Source: a bacterium (GTDB taxonomy: Bacteria; Patescibacteriota; Microgenomatia; UBA1400; PJMF01). Taken from it: a DNA stretch of 38,873 nucleotides. The stretch is taken from the NCBI GenBank assembly GCA_900299405.1, contig OMJP01000010.1, forward strand, positions 1 through 38,873, given 5' to 3'. Numbering within the stretch: the first letter of the stretch is position 1; every line of letters starts with the position of its first letter. Shown one piece after another: positions 5,335 through 32,319 of the stretch. The notes beneath the pieces were generated by a model, which saw nothing but the letters and a program-made list of their open reading frames with translations, was not told the DNA's origin and made no database searches. The position numbers and the translations under genes were made by a program.

Positions 5335-5364
5335 CAGCATTTTTAAAAAAGTAAGGTTCATTAA

Positions 5365-15895: not shown

Positions 15896-16465
15896 ATGTC
15901 CGGTCATAGTAAGTGGAGTACTATCAAACACAAAAAAGCGGCCACTGATGCTGCCAAAGGCAAGGTTTTTGGTCAAATCGCCAGGCTAATTCGCGCTGCG
16001 GTCAAAGAGGGTGGTTCGGGTGATCCGCAAACCAACGCCAGCTTGAGGCCGCTGCTGGAAAAGGCTAGGTCAGAGAACATGCCCAAAGACAAAATCCAGA
16101 AGGCGATCGATGTTGCTTTGGGTAAAGGCACTGGCGGTCAGGCGCAGGAGATTGTCTATGAGGGTTTTGGTCCTGGTGGAGTAGGCTGCCTGATTGTGGC
16201 GGTGACTGACAATGCCAACCGTACTAGTGCTGAGATCAAGCATATTTTCAGTCGTCTCGATGGGTCCCTGGGTTCTCCTGGCTCGGTTTCTTATATGTTT
16301 GCTAGAGGGAATGACGGTGGTTACGTGCCGACGATTCCTTTTCAGGTAGAGGAGAAAAATCAGCAGGATAAACTGCAAAACTTACTCAATGAGCTCCAAG
16401 AAAACGAAGATGTTGAGGAAGTTTTTTGTGCGGGCCAGTGGCCGGGAGCTGAGCATGCGTCGTAG
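15896..16465 (+). CDS. yebC: YebC/PmpR family protein (shortened)
   Basis: MSGHSKWSTIKHKK, NMPKD.I, YEGFGPGG, TDN.NRT, DV..VF; SD GAGGAG upstream. Confidence 0.95.
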   Translation: MSGHSKWSTIKHKKAATDAAKGKVFGQIARLIRAAVKEGGSGDPQTNASLRPLLEKARSENMPKDKIQKAIDVALGKGTGGQAQEIVYEGFGPGGVGCLIVAVTDNANRTSAEIKHIFSRLDGSLGSPGSVSYMFARGNDGGYVPTIPFQVEEKNQQDKLQNLLNELQENEDVEEVFCAGQWPGAEHAS

Positions 16466-17222
16466 AGAGAAATTTGTTTTAGCGGCTGCCTTGCTGAGTG
16501 TGGCTTTGCTGATGGTGCAGTATGTGGGAGTGGAGTGGCGTTACTGGGCTTTCGGCGGCTTTATGGTGGTTTCTTATCTGGTTTCTTCCTGGGCACTGTC
16601 TGATGATCTGCAGCCCCATGAGTGGCTGACGATTTTGCCTTTTCCTGCCTTGTACGCTGGCTCGGTGTCGCTGTTTTATTTTTTACTGCCGACTGCTTTT
16701 CTGACTAGAGTAGCGGTCTTGGGGTTGTTCGGAGTGGGGATGTATGGTCTTTATCTGACGAGCAATATTTTCTCGGTGGCCAAAGGGCGCACGATTCAGT
16801 TACTGTACGCGGCTCACGCTGTAGGCTTGTTTTTTACCCTGTTTACTTCGATGTTGTTCACCAATGCGATTTTTTCCTTGCGCCTGCCTTTTTATGCCAA
16901 TGCGGGGCTAATAGGCTTGGTTCATTTGCCGTTGGTGATGATGAGTTTGTGGTCGATCAAGCTGGAGGACCATGTCAGTCCGATGATCTGGCAGTTTTCC
17001 TCGATCATGACCCTGGTGCTGGTGGAGCTGGTGATTATTTTCTCCCTGCTGCCACTGCCAGCCTGGCACGTCGCCCTATTCGTCATGGGGGTGCTCTATA
17101 TCGGTCTGGGAGTGCTGCAAAGTCAGATCAGAGAACGCCTATTCCAAAACACCGCCAACGAATACTCCCTCGTCGCAGTCTTGCTCGGCATCATTTTCCT
17201 GATCCTTTTCCCCTGGAAATAG
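16455..17222 (+). CDS. Polytopic membrane protein (DUF5656-like)
   Basis: About 8-9 TM helices, NIF.V...RTIQL..AA motif; overlaps the yebC stop; family name from recall. Confidence 0.65.
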   Translation: MRRREKFVLAAALLSVALLMVQYVGVEWRYWAFGGFMVVSYLVSSWALSDDLQPHEWLTILPFPALYAGSVSLFYFLLPTAFLTRVAVLGLFGVGMYGLYLTSNIFSVAKGRTIQLLYAAHAVGLFFTLFTSMLFTNAIFSLRLPFYANAGLIGLVHLPLVMMSLWSIKLEDHVSPMIWQFSSIMTLVLVELVIIFSLLPLPAWHVALFVMGVLYIGLGVLQSQIRERLFQNTANEYSLVAVLLGIIFLILFPWK

Positions 17223-17330: not shown

Positions 17331-17930
17331 ATGTCTGCTATTCGCGGCAAAGAATTTTTGGGTAGGGAACCGGAGTTTAGAATGGGCATAATGTCTACAG
17401 GACCCTCAGCGCCTGATGTGATGGCAAATCCCACTTCTGCTATCTTTGACGAAGGCTTAAGAGTTGCCCTTTTTCACAGTAATTCTGCCAATAGTTTATA
17501 CGACACAGTTGAGCACACCTATGATGCTTCCAGATCTGGAGAAGCAAAAGCGAGATATCCTCGACACATTATTGCTAGGTTGTTGATGCAAGCAGCATAC
17601 GACTGTTGGTTCATCGAGAATAATAAGAAGTTGGCACGAAGGTTATTGGGGCAGCTCAACAGTCCTTATCTTAGGAAAGATAAGTTAAGCACTCATAATT
17701 TAGAAATGACTCTAAATAGCATATTCGTTTTAATGAGGAAAAAACGAAAGTATGATAATCCAGAACAAGAGGAATCGTTTAGGGAGTTATTTGCTGAGGT
17801 GGTTAAAGGTAACGATCAAATAAATATGAATGTGAATTTTACTCTGGATATTATAGCTAAAGAAGCCAAGGCTAGAGTAGATCTGGCGTCGGATTTATTG
17901 GCTGCTTCGATATTGTCAGAAGAAGAGTAG
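17331..17930 (+). CDS. Hypothetical protein, AT-richer than flanking genes
   Basis: 199-aa ORF with AAGG upstream and a terminator downstream; no recognised motif. Confidence 0.6.
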   Translation: MSAIRGKEFLGREPEFRMGIMSTGPSAPDVMANPTSAIFDEGLRVALFHSNSANSLYDTVEHTYDASRSGEAKARYPRHIIARLLMQAAYDCWFIENNKKLARRLLGQLNSPYLRKDKLSTHNLEMTLNSIFVLMRKKRKYDNPEQEESFRELFAEVVKGNDQINMNVNFTLDIIAKEAKARVDLASDLLAASILSEEE

Positions 17931-17988
17931 TTAAATTTCCCGCCTGGAGACCAGGCTAAATTTTCGGAAAAATAGGGTAGACTAGAGG

Positions 17989-18016
17989 AAAACCAGGCTT
18001 AACGGCCTGGTTTTTT
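17989..18016 (+). terminator. Rho-independent terminator, possibly bidirectional
   Basis: AAAACCAGGC-TTAACG-GCCTGGTTTTTT. Confidence 0.8.
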
Positions 18017-18583
18017 GATGGGTGCAAAATTAAGTTTGGCAAACTACCAGGCTATATTGGGAATTTTCTAAATGTAGAAGTTTAATTTTTACGGTAAATA
18101 ATCACAAAAAACTAGGGTAGAGGCGGCAGAAAAAAGGGCATAGGCACCAGATAGAGAATAGGGAAATGATATAGTTTGATAGGGTATAACCAAATTGTGG
18201 AAAACTATAGGATTTCCTGTGAAAAAGTTATAGGATCTTTTAGGGAGTGATACCAGGCTAAATGATATATTTTGTTACAGTTTTCTGGCCTCAAGTGCCA
18301 GATATTTGCAAGAATAAATATAGGCACCTAGCCTGGACAGGGAGTGAAATTGCAAGATAATCTCCTCTGGAAAACCCCTGAAACCAGGCATAAACGGCTC
18401 CGAGGAGAGAGGTTCATAGGAAACCCGAAGCGGTTTTTCGGTAAAGCGACATGCAAAGTGGCAGCCACGCTGGAAAGAGGGCGTAAAGGAAAAATATTTA
18501 ATGCAACTTTTATAAATAAATAGAGGCGAGCAGGGAGCACTACTTCTCTTCGTGAAACCTGCCCCCAAAAGCCTAGACCAATT

Positions 18584-18611
18584 ACGTCGCACAATATAAC
18601 TTTTACGACGT
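18584..18611. other. dif-like Xer recombination site (28 bp)
   Basis: ACGTCGCACAA-TATAAC-TTTTACGACGT: 11-bp arms matching 9/11 as an inverted repeat around a 6-bp spacer; left arm shares CGCAnAA with the E. coli XerC arm; about 770 bp from a xer gene. Confidence 0.8.
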
Positions 18612-19345
18612 TAACCTAGACAGTTTGAGAGAGGCTGGCTCGGTGGCTTTTGCTGTTTTTCCTCAAGTATTTGCGCTTTTAGCTGCCTATCTGTGCCGCC
18701 GTTTTTCTCGGTTATTCTCTATTTATTTCCCTCGGTATGTTTTCTTGATTGCTACTTGAGAGCTACTTGAGTAAGTTGTTTATCGGTAGTGCCCGGTAGT
18801 GGCTTAAGCTAGTTGGACGGCCAAAAACCGCCAAAATCCTATTGATCACTTTTAGCAATAAAGATTGATGTATCAAGCTAATTCTTTTAGACGACCTACC
18901 CATCGTTTTCGCCAGAAAAAGCCGTTTTTGAGCCGCTAAGAAGCCTAAAAATTGCCTGGTGTTCATAGCGGTCTGAGCCCGTTGGTATTGGGATTGTTAA
19001 TCACCTTTGCTGAAATGACTTTGATCAATCGATTAGTCTTTGCCGATTGAGTTTTATTCGAGTTAATTGTCGCCGCGATCACCAAGTATAACTAAAGTTT
19101 TTTTTCAAGTTGACCCGAGTGATAATCATCAGCGGCCAACATCCTGTTTGCTGTGATTTTTATATCGAATAGGGCTTTAGATATCATAATATGTCAGGAA
19201 AAATAGACTGACTTATCAGAAATTTTTGCCTATTATCGCTATTAGCACCAGACAGGGGAGTCTGACAAAATCTCATAGTATCTGCACTCACCGACGGCGA
19301 ATTTTTCCTTGATTCACTCCCCTTTTGTGCTTGTTTGGTTGATCT

Positions 19346-19374
19346 TTGACTGTGCTGCTCTTTTCTTCTACGAT
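19346..19374 (+). promoter_or_regulatory. Sigma70-type promoter of the xer gene
   Basis: TTGACT-17 bp-TACGAT, ending 10 nt before ATG 19385. Confidence 0.6.
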
Positions 19375-19384
19375 GAAGTTACCG

Positions 19385-20323
19385 ATGGCAAGCAAAACTA
19401 TCCCCTCTCCGGCTATGATGGATTTTTTGGAATCTTTGGAGGTGGAACGTAATCTCTCTCCCCTAACGATCCGCAACTACCACCATTATTTGGAGCGCTT
19501 CAATGCCTGGTTCGCGGAGCAGGGATATAAATCCATCGAGGAACTCGATAAAGACATCTTGAGGAAGTACAGGATCTACCTCTCGAGGTATGTCGATGAG
19601 CAAAACAGGACACTCTCGAAGAAGACCCAGAGTTATCACATCATTGCGTTGCGCTCTTGGCTCAAGTGGCTAGTCAAAAACGACGCCAAGGTGCTGCACC
19701 CCGAGAAAGTCGACCTGCCCAAGGCAGAATCGATTCCGATGAAGTTTGTTTCCGCCGAGAAAATTCAGCGTCTACTCGATGAGCCAGACGTCACTGACGA
19801 CCAAGGTCTGCGCGATCGAGCGATTCTCGAGGTACTGTTCTCGACTGGTTTGCGGGTTAGCGAGCTGGTGAGCCTGAATCGTGACCAGATCGACCTGGAC
19901 CGCCGCGAATTTGGCGTGATCGGTAAAGGCAGACGCCCTCGAGTAGTTTTCCTGAGCGACGCGGCAGCAGAATGGCTGGAGCGCTGGCTGGATGCTAGAG
20001 AAGACAACTGGCGGCCGGTCTTCATCCGCTTTTCTGGCAAAAAACCTGATTTACTTGATGATGGTGAGCAAATGAGGCTGACAACCAGAAGTGTCCAGCG
20101 CCTGGTGGATAAATACAGTCGCCGGGCTAGGTTGCCGATTAAGCTCTCTCCGCACGGCATTCGTCACAGTTTCGCGACCGACCTACTCAGTAATGGCGCC
20201 GGCTTGCGCGACGTTCAGGAAATGCTGGGCCACAAAAACATCGCCACGACGCAAATCTATACCCACGTCACCCAACCACAACTGAGAAAAGTTCACGAAA
20301 AACATCACTCACAGACACAATAG
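19385..20323 (+). CDS. XerC/XerD-family tyrosine recombinase
   Basis: SAM-like N-domain (FL..L..ERN.S..TI.NY); full catalytic set TGLRVSEL, GKG, HGIRHSFAT, LGH, TTQIYTHV. Confidence 0.95.
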   Translation: MASKTIPSPAMMDFLESLEVERNLSPLTIRNYHHYLERFNAWFAEQGYKSIEELDKDILRKYRIYLSRYVDEQNRTLSKKTQSYHIIALRSWLKWLVKNDAKVLHPEKVDLPKAESIPMKFVSAEKIQRLLDEPDVTDDQGLRDRAILEVLFSTGLRVSELVSLNRDQIDLDRREFGVIGKGRRPRVVFLSDAAAEWLERWLDAREDNWRPVFIRFSGKKPDLLDDGEQMRLTTRSVQRLVDKYSRRARLPIKLSPHGIRHSFATDLLSNGAGLRDVQEMLGHKNIATTQIYTHVTQPQLRKVHEKHHSQTQ

Positions 20324-31659: not shown

Positions 31660-32319
31660 ATGAAGTTACTGCCCACTATCAAAACCGCGCTGCAAACAGC
31701 AATCGGCGCTACTCGTCAATCAGGACGAGGTTTTACCATGATCGAGTTGCTGATCGTGATTGCCATTCTCGGTATTTTGGCGATCGCTGTTTTATCTGCT
31801 ATCAACCCTATTGAACAGATCAACCGTAGTCGAGACACTGGTAGCCGCTCCGATGCAGAGCAGCTCATTAGTGCCATCGATCGTTACTATGCTTTCAATG
31901 GTTATTATCCTTGGCAGACCGGCGCAGCCGACACTGCTAACGCTGCTTTGGCTTGGACTCAGTTCGAGGATTCCACTGATCTAACCGACAGTGGTGGCAC
32001 TTGTAAAGTAGCTGAAAAACTTGGTACGGCCACTACCGCTGGTTGTACTGGGGCCGATGAGCTCAAACAGAGCTTTTTGGACAGGGTCTCGGCCACTTCT
32101 TACAACTTCCTTTATCTCTACAATGATGGAGCTCAGGGAAGTAGCACTTATGCTTGTTTTGCTCCTCGTTCCCAGGCTTTTGTCCAGGAGGTCGAGCAAC
32201 GACTTGATCCAGATGGTGATGGCACTTTGGACAACTATCCAGCCGATTATCCGTCCGATGACGCGATTGGTAATACCACTGAATGTGGTACCGCTGGAAA
32301 CTGTGTCTGCTTGCCATAA
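31660..32319 (+). CDS. Probable major type IV pilin
   Basis: Class III signal RG|FTMIELLIVIAILGILA; strong SD AAGGGAG; own terminator; directly after pilC. Confidence 0.88.
   Translation: MKLLPTIKTALQTAIGATRQSGRGFTMIELLIVIAILGILAIAVLSAINPIEQINRSRDTGSRSDAEQLISAIDRYYAFNGYYPWQTGAADTANAALAWTQFEDSTDLTDSGGTCKVAEKLGTATTAGCTGADELKQSFLDRVSATSYNFLYLYNDGAQGSSTYACFAPRSQAFVQEVEQRLDPDGDGTLDNYPADYPSDDAIGNTTECGTAGNCVCLP

What the first reader, a model, noticed from the sequence alone, without database searches (positions are those of the whole stretch)
18584..20323. Candidate single-recombinase Xer/dif chromosome-resolution module in a CPR-type genome
Seen: a 28-bp site with exact 11-6-11 geometry (ACGTCGCACAA TATAAC TTTTACGACGT) whose arms are near-symmetric (9/11). 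It lies in a 1.4-kb gene-free region about 770 bp upstream of one intact tyrosine recombinase. Known: E. coli dif (GGTGCGCATAA TGTATA TTATGTTAAAT) has asymmetric arms for XerC plus XerD, while single-enzyme systems (XerS/difSL, XerH/difH, archaeal XerA) use one recombinase, with xerS and xerH lying near their site. Inference: this is a homotetrameric Xer system with its own ACGTCG...CGACGT site type. I do not know of an experimental description in Patescibacteria, but cannot check the literature here.
Basis: partly seen in the sequence, partly recalled or inferred. Interest (0 to 1): 0.8.

Follow-up and report, generated by a model that had tools for sequence, protein, structure and literature searches.

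The report
Conserved dif site beside CPR Xer
The 28-base palindrome is very probably the site where these ultra-small bacteria unlink chromosome dimers; it lies next to its recombinase gene and phages copy it, but the genome has a second recombinase and the site is not at the replication terminus.

Summary
The site is real (window 18584-18611) and single-copy in its genome. Its 11-6-11 geometry alone is not special: the window holds 12 such palindromes against 5.5 in simulations. Comparison makes it significant.

- **Conservation:** the same 28-mer occurs once per genome in 37 of 41 genomes of the order and in 70 of 121 of the class. A reversed-pattern control gave 0 and 1 hits. The flanks are not conserved.
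- **Linkage:** it usually lies 0.5-1.7 kb upstream of one conserved xer gene (Xer-1).
- **Homology:** the commonest Patescibacteria form matches the E. coli dif core at 17 of 22 bases, so this is a canonical-type dif, not a new site type.
- **Phage copies:** 85 viral contigs carry exact copies of the arms (control 0), as elements that exploit Xer would.
- **Recombinase number:** this genome and 115 of 121 class genomes carry a second Xer paralogue. However, Xer-1 is the only tyrosine recombinase in most other Patescibacteria. I give about 50% to Xer-1 acting alone and 33% to a Xer-1/Xer-2 pair.
- **Position:** the site sits where gene orientation converges, but 4-29% of the chromosome away from the GC-skew shift.

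The scan has noted this kind of site before on other DNA (77 notes). I found no paper describing it.

The parts
18584..18611 (+). 28-bp dif-type site. Left arm ACGTCGCACAA, centre TATAAC, right arm TTTTACGACGT. The outer arm bases GTCG/CGAC are identical on both sides. The inner bases (CACAA against the complement of TTTTA) and the centre (T....C) are conserved and asymmetric.
   Evidence: Conservation is confined to positions 3-26 and the flanks are unconserved. One copy per genome in relatives.
19385..20323 (+). xer-1, a Xer-family tyrosine recombinase of 312 aa counted from the conserved ATG at 19385. The ORF is open from 19346.
   Evidence: Pfam. NCBIfam XerC 253 bits and XerD 247 bits, both below their cut-offs. 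Best solved relative is E. coli XerD 1a0p at 135 bits. An orthologue is present in 41 of 41 genomes of the order. The start codon was chosen from the genus alignment.
19346..19374 (+). Promoter-like TTGACT-17-TACGAT that ends 10 nt before the ATG at 19385. If real, the xer-1 mRNA would be nearly leaderless (inference).
   Evidence: The block is conserved in the two same-genus genomes aligned.
17931..19384 (.). 1.45-kb region without a credible gene that holds the site. Apart from the 28-mer it has a few genus-level conserved blocks of unknown role.

Best explanation
The 28-mer is the chromosomal dif site of this Microgenomates (Patescibacteria) bacterium, and the adjacent gene xer-1 encodes the recombinase that acts on it.

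Proposed mechanism:
1. After an odd number of crossovers between sister chromosomes, the two dif copies of the dimer are brought together at the septum by FtsK. This genome's FtsK has alpha, motor and gamma domains.
2. Xer-1 binds both nearly identical arms (GTCGCA.AA on each side).
3. Four subunits synapse the two sites and exchange strands across the 6-bp centre.
4. The conserved asymmetry (C at position 9, centre T....C) sets the order of cleavage.

I think Xer-1 most likely does this alone, as a homotetramer. It would then resemble XerS, XerH or XerA in the number of recombinases, but on a site whose core is homologous to canonical dif. Phages and small filamentous-phage-like elements carry copies of the arms with a different centre, and presumably use the host enzyme to integrate.

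Shown here: site conservation, copy number, linkage, homology to dif, phage copies and gene content.
Inferred: binding, stoichiometry, FtsK control and dimer resolution itself.

Odds: about 0.85-0.9 that this is a dif-type Xer site, and 0.5 for the whole statement including 'Xer-1 alone'.
For: (1) Copy number. The pattern TCGCACAATN5TTTTRCGA with at most 1 mismatch hit 38 of 41 genomes of the order. 37 had exactly one hit, and the reversed-pattern control gave 0 of 41. In the class it hit 71 of 121 genomes (70 with one hit); the control hit 1 genome.

(2) Shape of conservation. Information content is about 2 bits at positions 3-26 and near 0 in the flanks, across 26 loci. The palindrome does not extend beyond the 28-mer: 3.24 against 2.96 complementary positions out of 10 in the control. 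This fits a protein-binding DNA site, not an RNA.

(3) Linkage. In 36 of the 38 genomes the site is on the same contig as xer-1. In 34 it lies about 0.45-1.7 kb upstream, and in 35 of 36 it has the same orientation. It lies within 3 kb of xer-1 in 65 of 80 loci from Pace-, Gottesman-, Levy- and Woesebacteria records.

(4) Homology to dif. The common phylum form TCGCACAA TGTATC TTATGCGA matches the E. coli dif core quoted in the finding at 17 of 22 positions.

(5) Position. The shorter arc from dnaA to the site is at least 0.35 of the chromosome in 13 of 14 single-contig genomes. Gene orientation converges at the site in 11 of 12 loci examined. In G064, from another class, the site sits where skew changes sign.

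(6) Phage copies. 85 IMG/VR contigs carry exact copies of both arms, against 0 for the reversed control. Of the 80 loci examined, 79 have no Xer-like gene in the stretch held. 13 have a related large terminase and 2 a filamentous-phage assembly ATPase family. Their centres differ from the host centres.

(7) Xer-1 alone. 167 of 284 sampled genomes of other Patescibacteria classes have exactly one PF00589 match. In 5 of 5 complete single-contig genomes that gene is the Xer-1 orthologue: 41-50% identity and E 1e-62 to 1e-84, against E 1e-13 to 1e-19 for Xer-2. 3 of those 5 hold one unique site of this family. The outer arms, which discriminate XerC from XerD in canonical dif, are identical here.
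Against: A second intact Xer-family gene (Xer-2, 304 aa, contig C40, 26% identical to Xer-1) is present in this genome.
- Orthologues occur in 39 of 41 genomes of the order.
- 115 of 121 class genomes have at least two PF00589 matches.
- Xer-2 has no conserved site of its own nearby.
- It lies 3-12% of the chromosome from dnaA in 8 of 8 single-contig genomes. Together with xer-1 lying near dif, this is the arrangement Kono et al. 2011 report for xerD (near the origin) and xerC (near dif) (passage).
- The arm asymmetry is conserved, which would also suit two proteins.

The site is not at the replication-associated GC-skew shift.
- In the window, skew is positive on both sides.
- G013: the shift is at about 490 kb and the site at 741.5 kb, which is 29% of the chromosome.
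- G026 and G038: about 100 kb away, roughly 10%.
- G072 and G402: the site is at one edge of a transition zone of 30-100 kb.

An octamer-polarity scan in G013 gave no clear KOPS-like switch at the site. No binding or recombination has been measured.
Confidence: 0.5

Rival explanations
1. The site is a dif, but it is served by two recombinases as in the XerC/XerD system. Xer-1 (next to dif) and Xer-2 (near the origin) each bind one arm and form a heterotetramer.
For: - Two Xer-family paralogues are conserved throughout the class.
- Both are catalytically intact by motif, and both find XerD as their best solved relative.
- Xer-2 has no site of its own nearby.
- The gene positions mimic xerC near dif and xerD near the origin (Kono 2011 passage).
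- The inner-arm and centre asymmetry is conserved.
- The site core is homologous to canonical dif.
- FtsK has a gamma domain.
Against: - The outer arm bases are identical on both sides (GTCG/CGAC), so there is nothing obvious for two 26%-identical proteins to tell apart.
- The same site family works in genomes that have only the Xer-1 orthologue.
- Xer-2 is present whether the right arm is of the TTTT or the TTAT type, so it does not track the arm change.
- Four class genomes of 97-99% completeness have the site and only one PF00589 match (G346, G359, G367, G380). They are multi-contig, so this is weak.
Confidence: 0.33
2. The site is mainly an attachment or cassette site for mobile DNA (phage attB, or an integron-like platform run by the Xer-type enzyme). 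Chromosome dimer resolution is not its selected role.
For: Many viral contigs carry the arms. G036 and G384 each show a second, weaker copy nearby.
Against: - There is one copy per genome in nearly all relatives, with no arrays.
- Class- and phylum-wide vertical conservation with a housekeeping-like gene.
- Terminus-side position and convergence of gene orientation.
- Exploitation of dif by mobile elements is what is known for true dif sites (abstracts of PMC9226527 and 10.64898/2026.06.12.731946 in the listing).
Confidence: 0.08
3. The palindrome is an RNA hairpin (part of an unannotated RNA, or a terminator) or an operator that regulates xer-1.
For: - It lies in a 1.45-kb gene-free stretch that has other conserved blocks and promoter-like boxes.
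- The stem could form 9 of 11 pairs.
- T-G combinations at positions 2/27 are common: 32 of 82.
Against: - No Rfam match.
- Conservation stops at the edges of the 28-mer, and the stem shows sequence invariance, not covariation.
- There is an invariant C-T mismatch at positions 9/20 in 81 of 82 sites.
- The distance to xer-1 varies from 0.45 to 6.8 kb; the site is inverted in G007 and in 4 of the 80 named-record loci (L136, L138, L141, L143), and unlinked in G383, G064 and G091.
- The same letters occur in phage genomes.
Confidence: 0.03

Closest known systems
XerC/XerD-dif of E. coli and most bacteria, with FtsK
   Same: A 28-bp site of 11-6-11 form, single-copy. Its core is homologous: 17 of 22 positions for the phylum-wide form and 14 of 28 for this window's site, against the E. 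coli dif quoted in the finding. The recombinases are Xer-family with XerD as best solved relative. FtsK has a gamma domain. This class has two paralogues.
   Different: The outer arms are identical instead of distinct. Neither protein reaches the XerC or XerD equivalog cut-offs: 253 against 335 bits and 247 against 330 bits. One xer gene sits right beside the site. The site is 4-29% of the chromosome away from the skew shift, whereas Kono et al. 2011 report a strong correlation between dif and the shift-point (abstract). Most of the phylum has only one Xer.
XerS/difSL of streptococci and lactococci (PMC1914069, PMC2965235; abstracts seen in the listing)
   Same: The recombinase gene is genetically linked to its site. 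One recombinase suffices there, and FtsK is involved.
   Different: Xer-1 is not a XerS: NF003462 scores 126 bits against a cut-off of 267, and only over the C-terminal half. The site here has a canonical-type core and symmetric arms. A second paralogue is present in this class.
XerH/difH of Helicobacter and Campylobacter (PMC3325230, PMC5241119; abstracts in the listing)
   Same: A single chromosomal Xer with its cognate dif, and near-palindromic arms (the latter is recalled, not checked here).
   Different: Only a weak sequence relation: 5jjv at 47 bits, C-terminal domain only.
Archaeal XerA/dif (PMC2958812, PMC3646895; abstracts in the listing)
   Same: A single Xer acts on a dif-like site. 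NF040815 (XerA) scores 205 bits for Xer-1 and 175 for Xer-2, close to its cut-off of 220.
   Different: This is a bacterial lineage with a complete FtsK. The score is below the cut-off.
'Cand' subgroup of Xer-related simple tyrosine recombinases (Smyshlyaev et al. 2021, PMC8138268; passage read)
   Same: That paper groups Xer-related recombinases from 'Candidate' phyla, which probably includes proteins like these.
   Different: The passages I read name the proteins only and describe no site. I could not test membership because its profiles and datasets are not available here and supplements are closed.
Integrative mobile elements exploiting Xer, such as CTX-phi (abstracts in the listing)
   Same: Phage and filamentous-phage-like contigs carry the host dif arms with a changed centre, and no Xer-like gene is seen in the stretch held.
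   Different: Integration was not shown. Only up to about 15 kb of each contig was held, so an integrase elsewhere on a contig is not excluded.

Membership tests
dif (Xer chromosome-dimer resolution site) | 28 bp: two 11-bp imperfectly inverted arms around a 6-bp centre | tested here: met
   Conserved extent is positions 3-26.
dif (Xer chromosome-dimer resolution site) | One copy per chromosome | tested here: met
   Own genome: 1 copy at up to 6 mismatches (the genome is 71% complete). Order: 37 of 41 genomes with exactly one copy, 1 with two, 3 with none. Class: 70 of 121 with one, 1 with two.
dif (Xer chromosome-dimer resolution site) | Sequence relation to known dif sites | tested here: met
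   The phylum-wide form matches 17 of 22 positions and the window site 14 of 28, against the E. coli dif quoted in the finding (compared by hand).
dif (Xer chromosome-dimer resolution site) | Lies at the replication terminus / GC-skew shift point | tested here: inconclusive
   The site is on the terminus side: the arc from dnaA is at least 0.35 of the chromosome in 13 of 14 single-contig genomes. Gene orientation converges there in 11 of 12 loci. But it is not at the skew shift in this class: 29% off in G013, about 10% off in G026 and G038, and at the edge of a transition zone in G072 and G402. There is no sign change in the window. It is at the sign change in G064, from another class.
dif (Xer chromosome-dimer resolution site) | Bound and recombined by the cognate Xer, and resolves dimers under FtsK control | not testable with these tools
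   Needs EMSA, cleavage and resolution assays.
Single-recombinase Xer systems (XerS, XerH, XerA type) | Only one Xer-family recombinase in the genome | tested here: not met
   Two are present in this genome. 115 of 121 class genomes have at least two. The feature is met in other classes of the phylum: 167 of 284 genomes with exactly one.
Single-recombinase Xer systems (XerS, XerH, XerA type) | Recombinase gene adjacent to its site | tested here: met
   773 bp in the window. 34 of 38 genomes of the order are within about 1.7 kb.
Single-recombinase Xer systems (XerS, XerH, XerA type) | Protein belongs to the XerS, XerH or XerA family by sequence | tested here: not met
   XerS 126 bits against a cut-off of 267. 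XerA 205 against 220. XerH structure 47 bits.
XerC/XerD pair | Two paralogues that reach the XerC and XerD equivalog models | tested here: not met
   Xer-1: XerC 253 against 335 bits, XerD 247 against 330. Xer-2: 173 and 172 bits. Neither protein prefers one model.
XerC/XerD pair | dif arms with different outer sequences, one for each protein | tested here: not met
   The outer bases GTCG/CGAC are identical and near-invariant.
XerC/XerD pair | FtsK with a gamma domain present | tested here: met
   PF17854, PF01580 and PF09397 all match the 715-aa FtsK of contig C31.

The most novel reading that the evidence does not exclude
Patescibacteria keep a simple form of the bacterial Xer system, perhaps the ancestral one: a single Xer acting on a nearly palindromic dif whose core is that of canonical dif. 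Within Microgenomatia three things have changed.
1. dif has become tied to its recombinase gene.
2. A second, origin-proximal paralogue has been added. This would be either an independent origin of a two-recombinase arrangement or a new function.
3. dif has come apart from the point where forks meet. It marks the convergence of gene orientation but lies 4-29% of the chromosome from the GC-skew shift.
If so, these cells resolve dimers at a place that is not the replication terminus.
Probability: 0.25. Interest if true: 0.7.

Novelty: new variant of a known kind. Interest (0 to 1): 0.5.

Why it matters
- **A usable landmark.** Chromosome dimer resolution is a near-universal housekeeping step, but I found no description of it for the candidate phyla radiation, a large share of bacterial diversity with tiny genomes and no routine culture. 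A defined 28-bp site with its enzyme marks the segregation terminus in hundreds of metagenome-assembled genomes and can serve as a check on their assembly.
- **A direct biochemical question.** One Xer or two on a symmetric, canonical-type dif can be tested with purified proteins.
- **A handle on phages.** The site identifies phages that integrate through the host Xer.
- **Replication and segregation.** The offset between the site and the GC-skew shift, if real and not an assembly effect, bears on how termination of replication and dimer resolution are coupled.

Tried and rejected
- **Rfam** on the whole window at gathering thresholds and on 17850-19450 at E up to 10 gave only tRNAs and chance-level hits. 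The RNA-gene reading was dropped.
- **Palindrome extension** into the flanks looked suggestive by eye but is not above a shuffled-partner control: 3.24 against 2.96 of 10.
- **Covariation of the arms:** positions 2/27 and 7/22 vary independently, so this gives no argument for one protein or two.
- **Octamer polarity scan** in G013 for a KOPS-like switch gave two broad, weak maxima near 530 and 740 kb with a maximum z of about 6. Inconclusive.
- **A conserved site next to Xer-2:** none found. Only tRNA-like words and a promoter-like box appeared in 12 loci.
- **A second, degenerate site** in the 6.8-kb gap between site and xer-1 in G038: none at up to 5 mismatches.
- **Rfam on the insertion** in the G072 xer-1 gene found nothing. 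It proved to be an in-frame intein-like insert.
- **Earlier notes of this scan:** the look-up near this place returned nothing.
- **Not attempted:**
  - a Xer phylogeny with XerC, XerD, XerS, XerH and XerA references, because I held no reference sequences;
  - Complex prediction, because a pass for any pair of tyrosine recombinases would not separate the homo- from the hetero-tetramer model;
  - structure prediction;
  - RNA or DNA read mapping.
Full report
**The observation**

The 28 bases ACGTCGCACAA TATAAC TTTTACGACGT stand at window 18584-18611. The arms pair at 9 of 11 positions.

The site lies in a 1.45-kb stretch (17931-19384) with no credible gene. The only ORF of 100 aa or more there (18275-18592, minus strand) has no Pfam match. 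Rfam finds nothing above chance.

Downstream lies an intact tyrosine recombinase gene.
- Pfam gives Phage_integrase E 3e-42 with the SAM-like N-terminal domain.
- All catalytic motifs are present.
- The conserved start is the ATG at 19385, 773 bp after the site. It sits directly behind a conserved TTGACT-17-TACGAT box.

The window is the whole of contig C10 of a 685,783-base, 43-contig genome that is 71% complete. The site is unique in that genome even with 6 mismatches allowed. Record titles of the nearest relatives place the organism in Patescibacteria, Microgenomates group, 'Candidatus Pacebacteria'.

Taken alone the palindrome is not remarkable. The window has 12 palindromes of 11-6-11 form with at least 9 of 11 pairs, against a mean of 5.5 (maximum 12) in 100 simulated windows.

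**Comparison with relatives**

The recombinase (Xer-1) has an orthologue in 41 of 41 genomes of the same order, at 39-83% identity.

The core pattern TCGCACAATN5TTTTRCGA, with at most 1 mismatch, gave these counts:

| Sample | Genomes hit | With one copy | With two | Reversed-pattern control |
|---|---|---|---|---|
| Order (41) | 38 | 37 | 1 (G036) | 0 genomes |
| Class (121, at least 95% complete apart from the own genome) | 71 | 70 | 1 | 1 genome |

Combining for the 38 genomes with a hit:
- In 36 the site is on the contig that carries xer-1.
- In 34 it lies about 0.45-1.7 kb upstream.
- In G005 and G038 it lies about 6.0 and 6.8 kb upstream.
- In 35 of 36 it has the same orientation; G007 is inverted.
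- In G003 and G040 the two features lie on different contigs, with xer-1 near a contig end.

In 80 loci from named Pace-, Gottesman-, Levy-, Woese- and other Microgenomates records, 65 carry the site (at most 3 mismatches) within 3 kb of xer-1. In 4 of them (L136, L138, L141, L143) the best match lies on the opposite strand.

Aligned on the site, 26 loci show about 2 bits of information at positions 3-26 and almost none in the flanks. The palindrome does not extend into the flanks beyond a shuffled control. The C/T mismatch at positions 9/20 is invariant in 81 of 82 distinct sites, and the first and last centre bases (T....C) are conserved. This is the signature of a polar, protein-bound DNA site, not of an RNA helix.

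**Relation to canonical dif**

In a sample of 301 Patescibacteria genomes, 201 have a match at up to 2 mismatches. The reversed control hit about 52 genomes by my hand count. The commonest form outside this class is TCGCACAA TGTATC TTATGCGA.

Against the E. coli dif quoted in the finding, that form agrees at 17 of 22 positions. The window's own site agrees at 14 of 28. The element is therefore a homologue of canonical dif, not a separate site type.

What is unusual is that the outer arm bases are the same on both sides (GTCG...CGAC). In E. coli these bases differ between the XerC and XerD arms.

The tallies include the unpublished genome G193, and those include G373. No statement here rests on either genome individually.

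**One recombinase or two**

The draft genome holds a second Xer-family gene (Xer-2).
- It lies on contig C40, encodes 304 aa, and is 26% identical to Xer-1. It has the same two domains and intact motifs.
- It has orthologues in 39 of 41 genomes of the order and in five further single-contig class genomes.
- 115 of 121 class genomes have at least two PF00589 matches at E of 1e-10 or better.
- NCBIfam cannot assign either protein to XerC or XerD. Xer-1 scores 253 and 247 bits, Xer-2 scores 173 and 172, all below the cut-offs.
- Both proteins have E. coli XerD as their best solved relative.
- No conserved site lies beside Xer-2.
- It sits 3-12% of the chromosome from dnaA in 8 of 8 single-contig genomes. 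Kono et al. 2011 say xerD tends to lie near the origin and xerC near dif (passage).

These points favour a two-enzyme system.

Against that, outside this class the phylum mostly has one tyrosine recombinase. PF00589 matches in 284 sampled genomes of other classes (transcribed by hand):

| Matches per genome | Genomes |
|---|---|
| 0 | 3 |
| 1 | 167 |
| 2 | 82 |
| 3 or more | 32 |

- In five complete single-contig genomes that single gene is the Xer-1 orthologue. It shows 41-50% identity and E 1e-62 to 1e-84, while Xer-2 finds the same gene only at E 1e-13 to 1e-19.
- Three of the five hold one unique site of this family.
- Xer-2 is present whether the right arm is TTTT-type or TTAT-type.

The site family therefore works with Xer-1 alone elsewhere. 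The identical outer arms give two different proteins nothing obvious to distinguish, and the gene-site linkage recalls XerS/difSL. I put Xer-1 alone at about 0.5 and a Xer-1/Xer-2 pair at about 0.33.

**Position on the chromosome**

An FtsK with alpha, motor and gamma domains is present.

In 14 single-contig genomes the shorter arc from dnaA to the site is 0.20-0.49 of the chromosome. It is at least 0.35 in 13 of them. The three genomes of other classes give 0.47-0.49, and the eleven of this class give 0.20-0.46.

Using long ORFs as a proxy for genes, gene orientation converges at the site in 11 of 12 loci.

The GC-skew shift does not coincide with the site in this class:

| Genome | Length (bp) | Skew shift | Site | Offset |
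|---|---|---|---|---|
| G013 (same family) | 853,053 | about 490 kb, opposite dnaA at 62 kb; origin-side change near 50 kb | 741.5 kb | 29% of the chromosome |
| G026 | 1,049,888 | about 450 kb | 348.7 kb | about 100 kb (roughly 10%) |
| G038 | 1,089,434 | about 710 kb | 818.9 kb | about 100 kb (roughly 10%) |
| G072 | 766,412 | zone of intermediate skew, 480-580 kb | 584.8 kb | site at one edge; the point opposite dnaA at the other |
| G402 | 905,201 | zone of intermediate skew, 90-120 kb | 90.4 kb | site at one edge; the point opposite dnaA at the other |
| G064 (another class) | 843,892 | sign change at 640-670 kb | 672.6 kb | site at the sign change |

In G013 the skew shift was taken from the replication-associated component, which is the mean of the skews of plus- and minus-strand genes. 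The 250 kb between the shift and the site carry genes that point toward the site.

In the window itself skew is positive on both sides of the site. An octamer-polarity scan in G013 was inconclusive.

The site marks the convergence of gene orientation on the terminus side, but not the skew shift. Kono et al. 2011 report a strong correlation between dif and the shift-point in other phyla (abstract), so this is a real difference or an assembly problem. I cannot tell which.

**Phage copies**

- An exact search of IMG/VR for both arms (GTCGCACAATN5TTTTRCGAC) found 85 viral contigs. The same pattern read backwards found none.
- In the 80 loci examined, only one has even a weak Xer-like match in the stretch held, at 22% identity.
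- 13 share a large terminase (PHROG E 4e-36 for the one scanned).
- 2 small contigs share a filamentous-phage assembly ATPase family.
- The two outermost bases of the 28-mer were not part of the pattern, yet they are mostly kept.
- The viral centres (TATACA, TATGTA, TATATC and others) differ from the host centres (TAATAC, TATAAC, TATTAC), mainly in their last bases.

Identical arms with a partly different centre and no integrase in view is the pattern known for mobile elements that exploit host Xer at dif (abstracts in the listing). I infer that these phages integrate at this site. That is independent support that the site is recombined in vivo. Integration itself was not shown, and an integrase elsewhere on the longer contigs is not excluded.

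**Literature**

Five full-text searches combined dif or Xer terms with Patescibacteria, candidate phyla radiation, Saccharibacteria, Microgenomates or Parcubacteria. None returned a paper describing such a site (listings only).
- Smyshlyaev et al. 2021 name a 'Cand' subgroup of Xer-related recombinases from candidate phyla (passage).
- Kono et al. 2011 predicted dif in 16 phyla (abstract and passages).
- Their supplements, which could list such genomes, were closed.

Within this scan the same kind of module has been noted often: 77 notes in at least 73 genomes. Two of them are on Microgenomates and also report that the skew does not switch at the site. One of those speaks of 'the single Xer gene' of Microgenomates, which my counts contradict for this class.

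**Verdict**

It is a genuine dif-type site with its Xer, in a variant form:
- a canonical core with symmetric arms;
- the recombinase gene beside the site;
- an extra conserved paralogue in this class;
- a position off the skew shift;
- phage mimics of the site.

The mechanism (binding, stoichiometry, FtsK control) is inferred, not shown.

Noticed in passing
L207 6653-8869 (minus strand; genome G072): The Xer-1 orthologue is one 738-aa ORF. An in-frame insert of about 420 aa sits inside the catalytic RH|SFAT box. The insert begins with C, ends with HN followed by S, and holds LAGLIDADG-like motifs, so it looks like an intein in a Xer recombinase. G412 (same family) shows the same low PF00589 score and may share it.
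   Followed up: partly
L207 10029-10526 (minus strand): A free-standing 165-aa ORF with a LAGLIDADG-like start (..LVDGEGCF..) lies directly beside the dif-type site of G072.
   Followed up: no
G026, G038 and G402 (loci L090-L106, L187-L206, L252-L258): These single-contig genomes have a GC skew of one sign all round the chromosome: all positive in G026 and in the 100-kb stretch of G402 read, all negative in G038. The replication step is superimposed on that offset. This is a genome-wide departure from strand symmetry that I did not explain.
   Followed up: no
window 18160-18320 and 18860-18935: These blocks are conserved among the three same-genus genomes aligned. They include two TGATATAG/TGATATAT boxes (18167, 18263), TTGCAAGAATAA (18306), and a palindrome TTGATGTATCAA (18865) followed by AAAAAGCCGTTTTTGAG. 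They may be promoters, an operator or a small RNA.
   Followed up: partly
G036:C4:124013-124034 and 130518-130539; G384:C6:31567-31588 and 31822-31843: Two genomes have a second, 1-mismatch copy of the site in inverted orientation, 6.5 kb and 255 bp from the first. In G036 the xer-1 match is also split in two, and no Xer-2 was found. This could be an inversion or the remnant of an integration.
   Followed up: no
viral loci L259-L338: Phage copies of the site keep the arms and the first centre bases (TAT/TCT/TGT) but differ from host centres in the last bases. In several tailed-phage contigs the site lies just upstream of the large terminase gene (for example L260: site 5335-5358, gene from 5486).
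   Followed up: partly
window 15896-17222: The YebC/TACO1-like ORF (15896-16465, 189 aa) covers only the N-terminal domain and the first third of the next Pfam domain. It overlaps a 277-aa ORF in another frame (16389-17222) that has no Pfam match. This may be a frameshift or an unusual fusion.
   Followed up: no
G013 490-741 kb (loci L071-L084): About 250 kb (29% of the chromosome) carry genes mostly on the strand that the replication-associated skew marks as lagging. Either a recent large rearrangement, an assembly error, or replication that does not end opposite the origin.
   Followed up: partly
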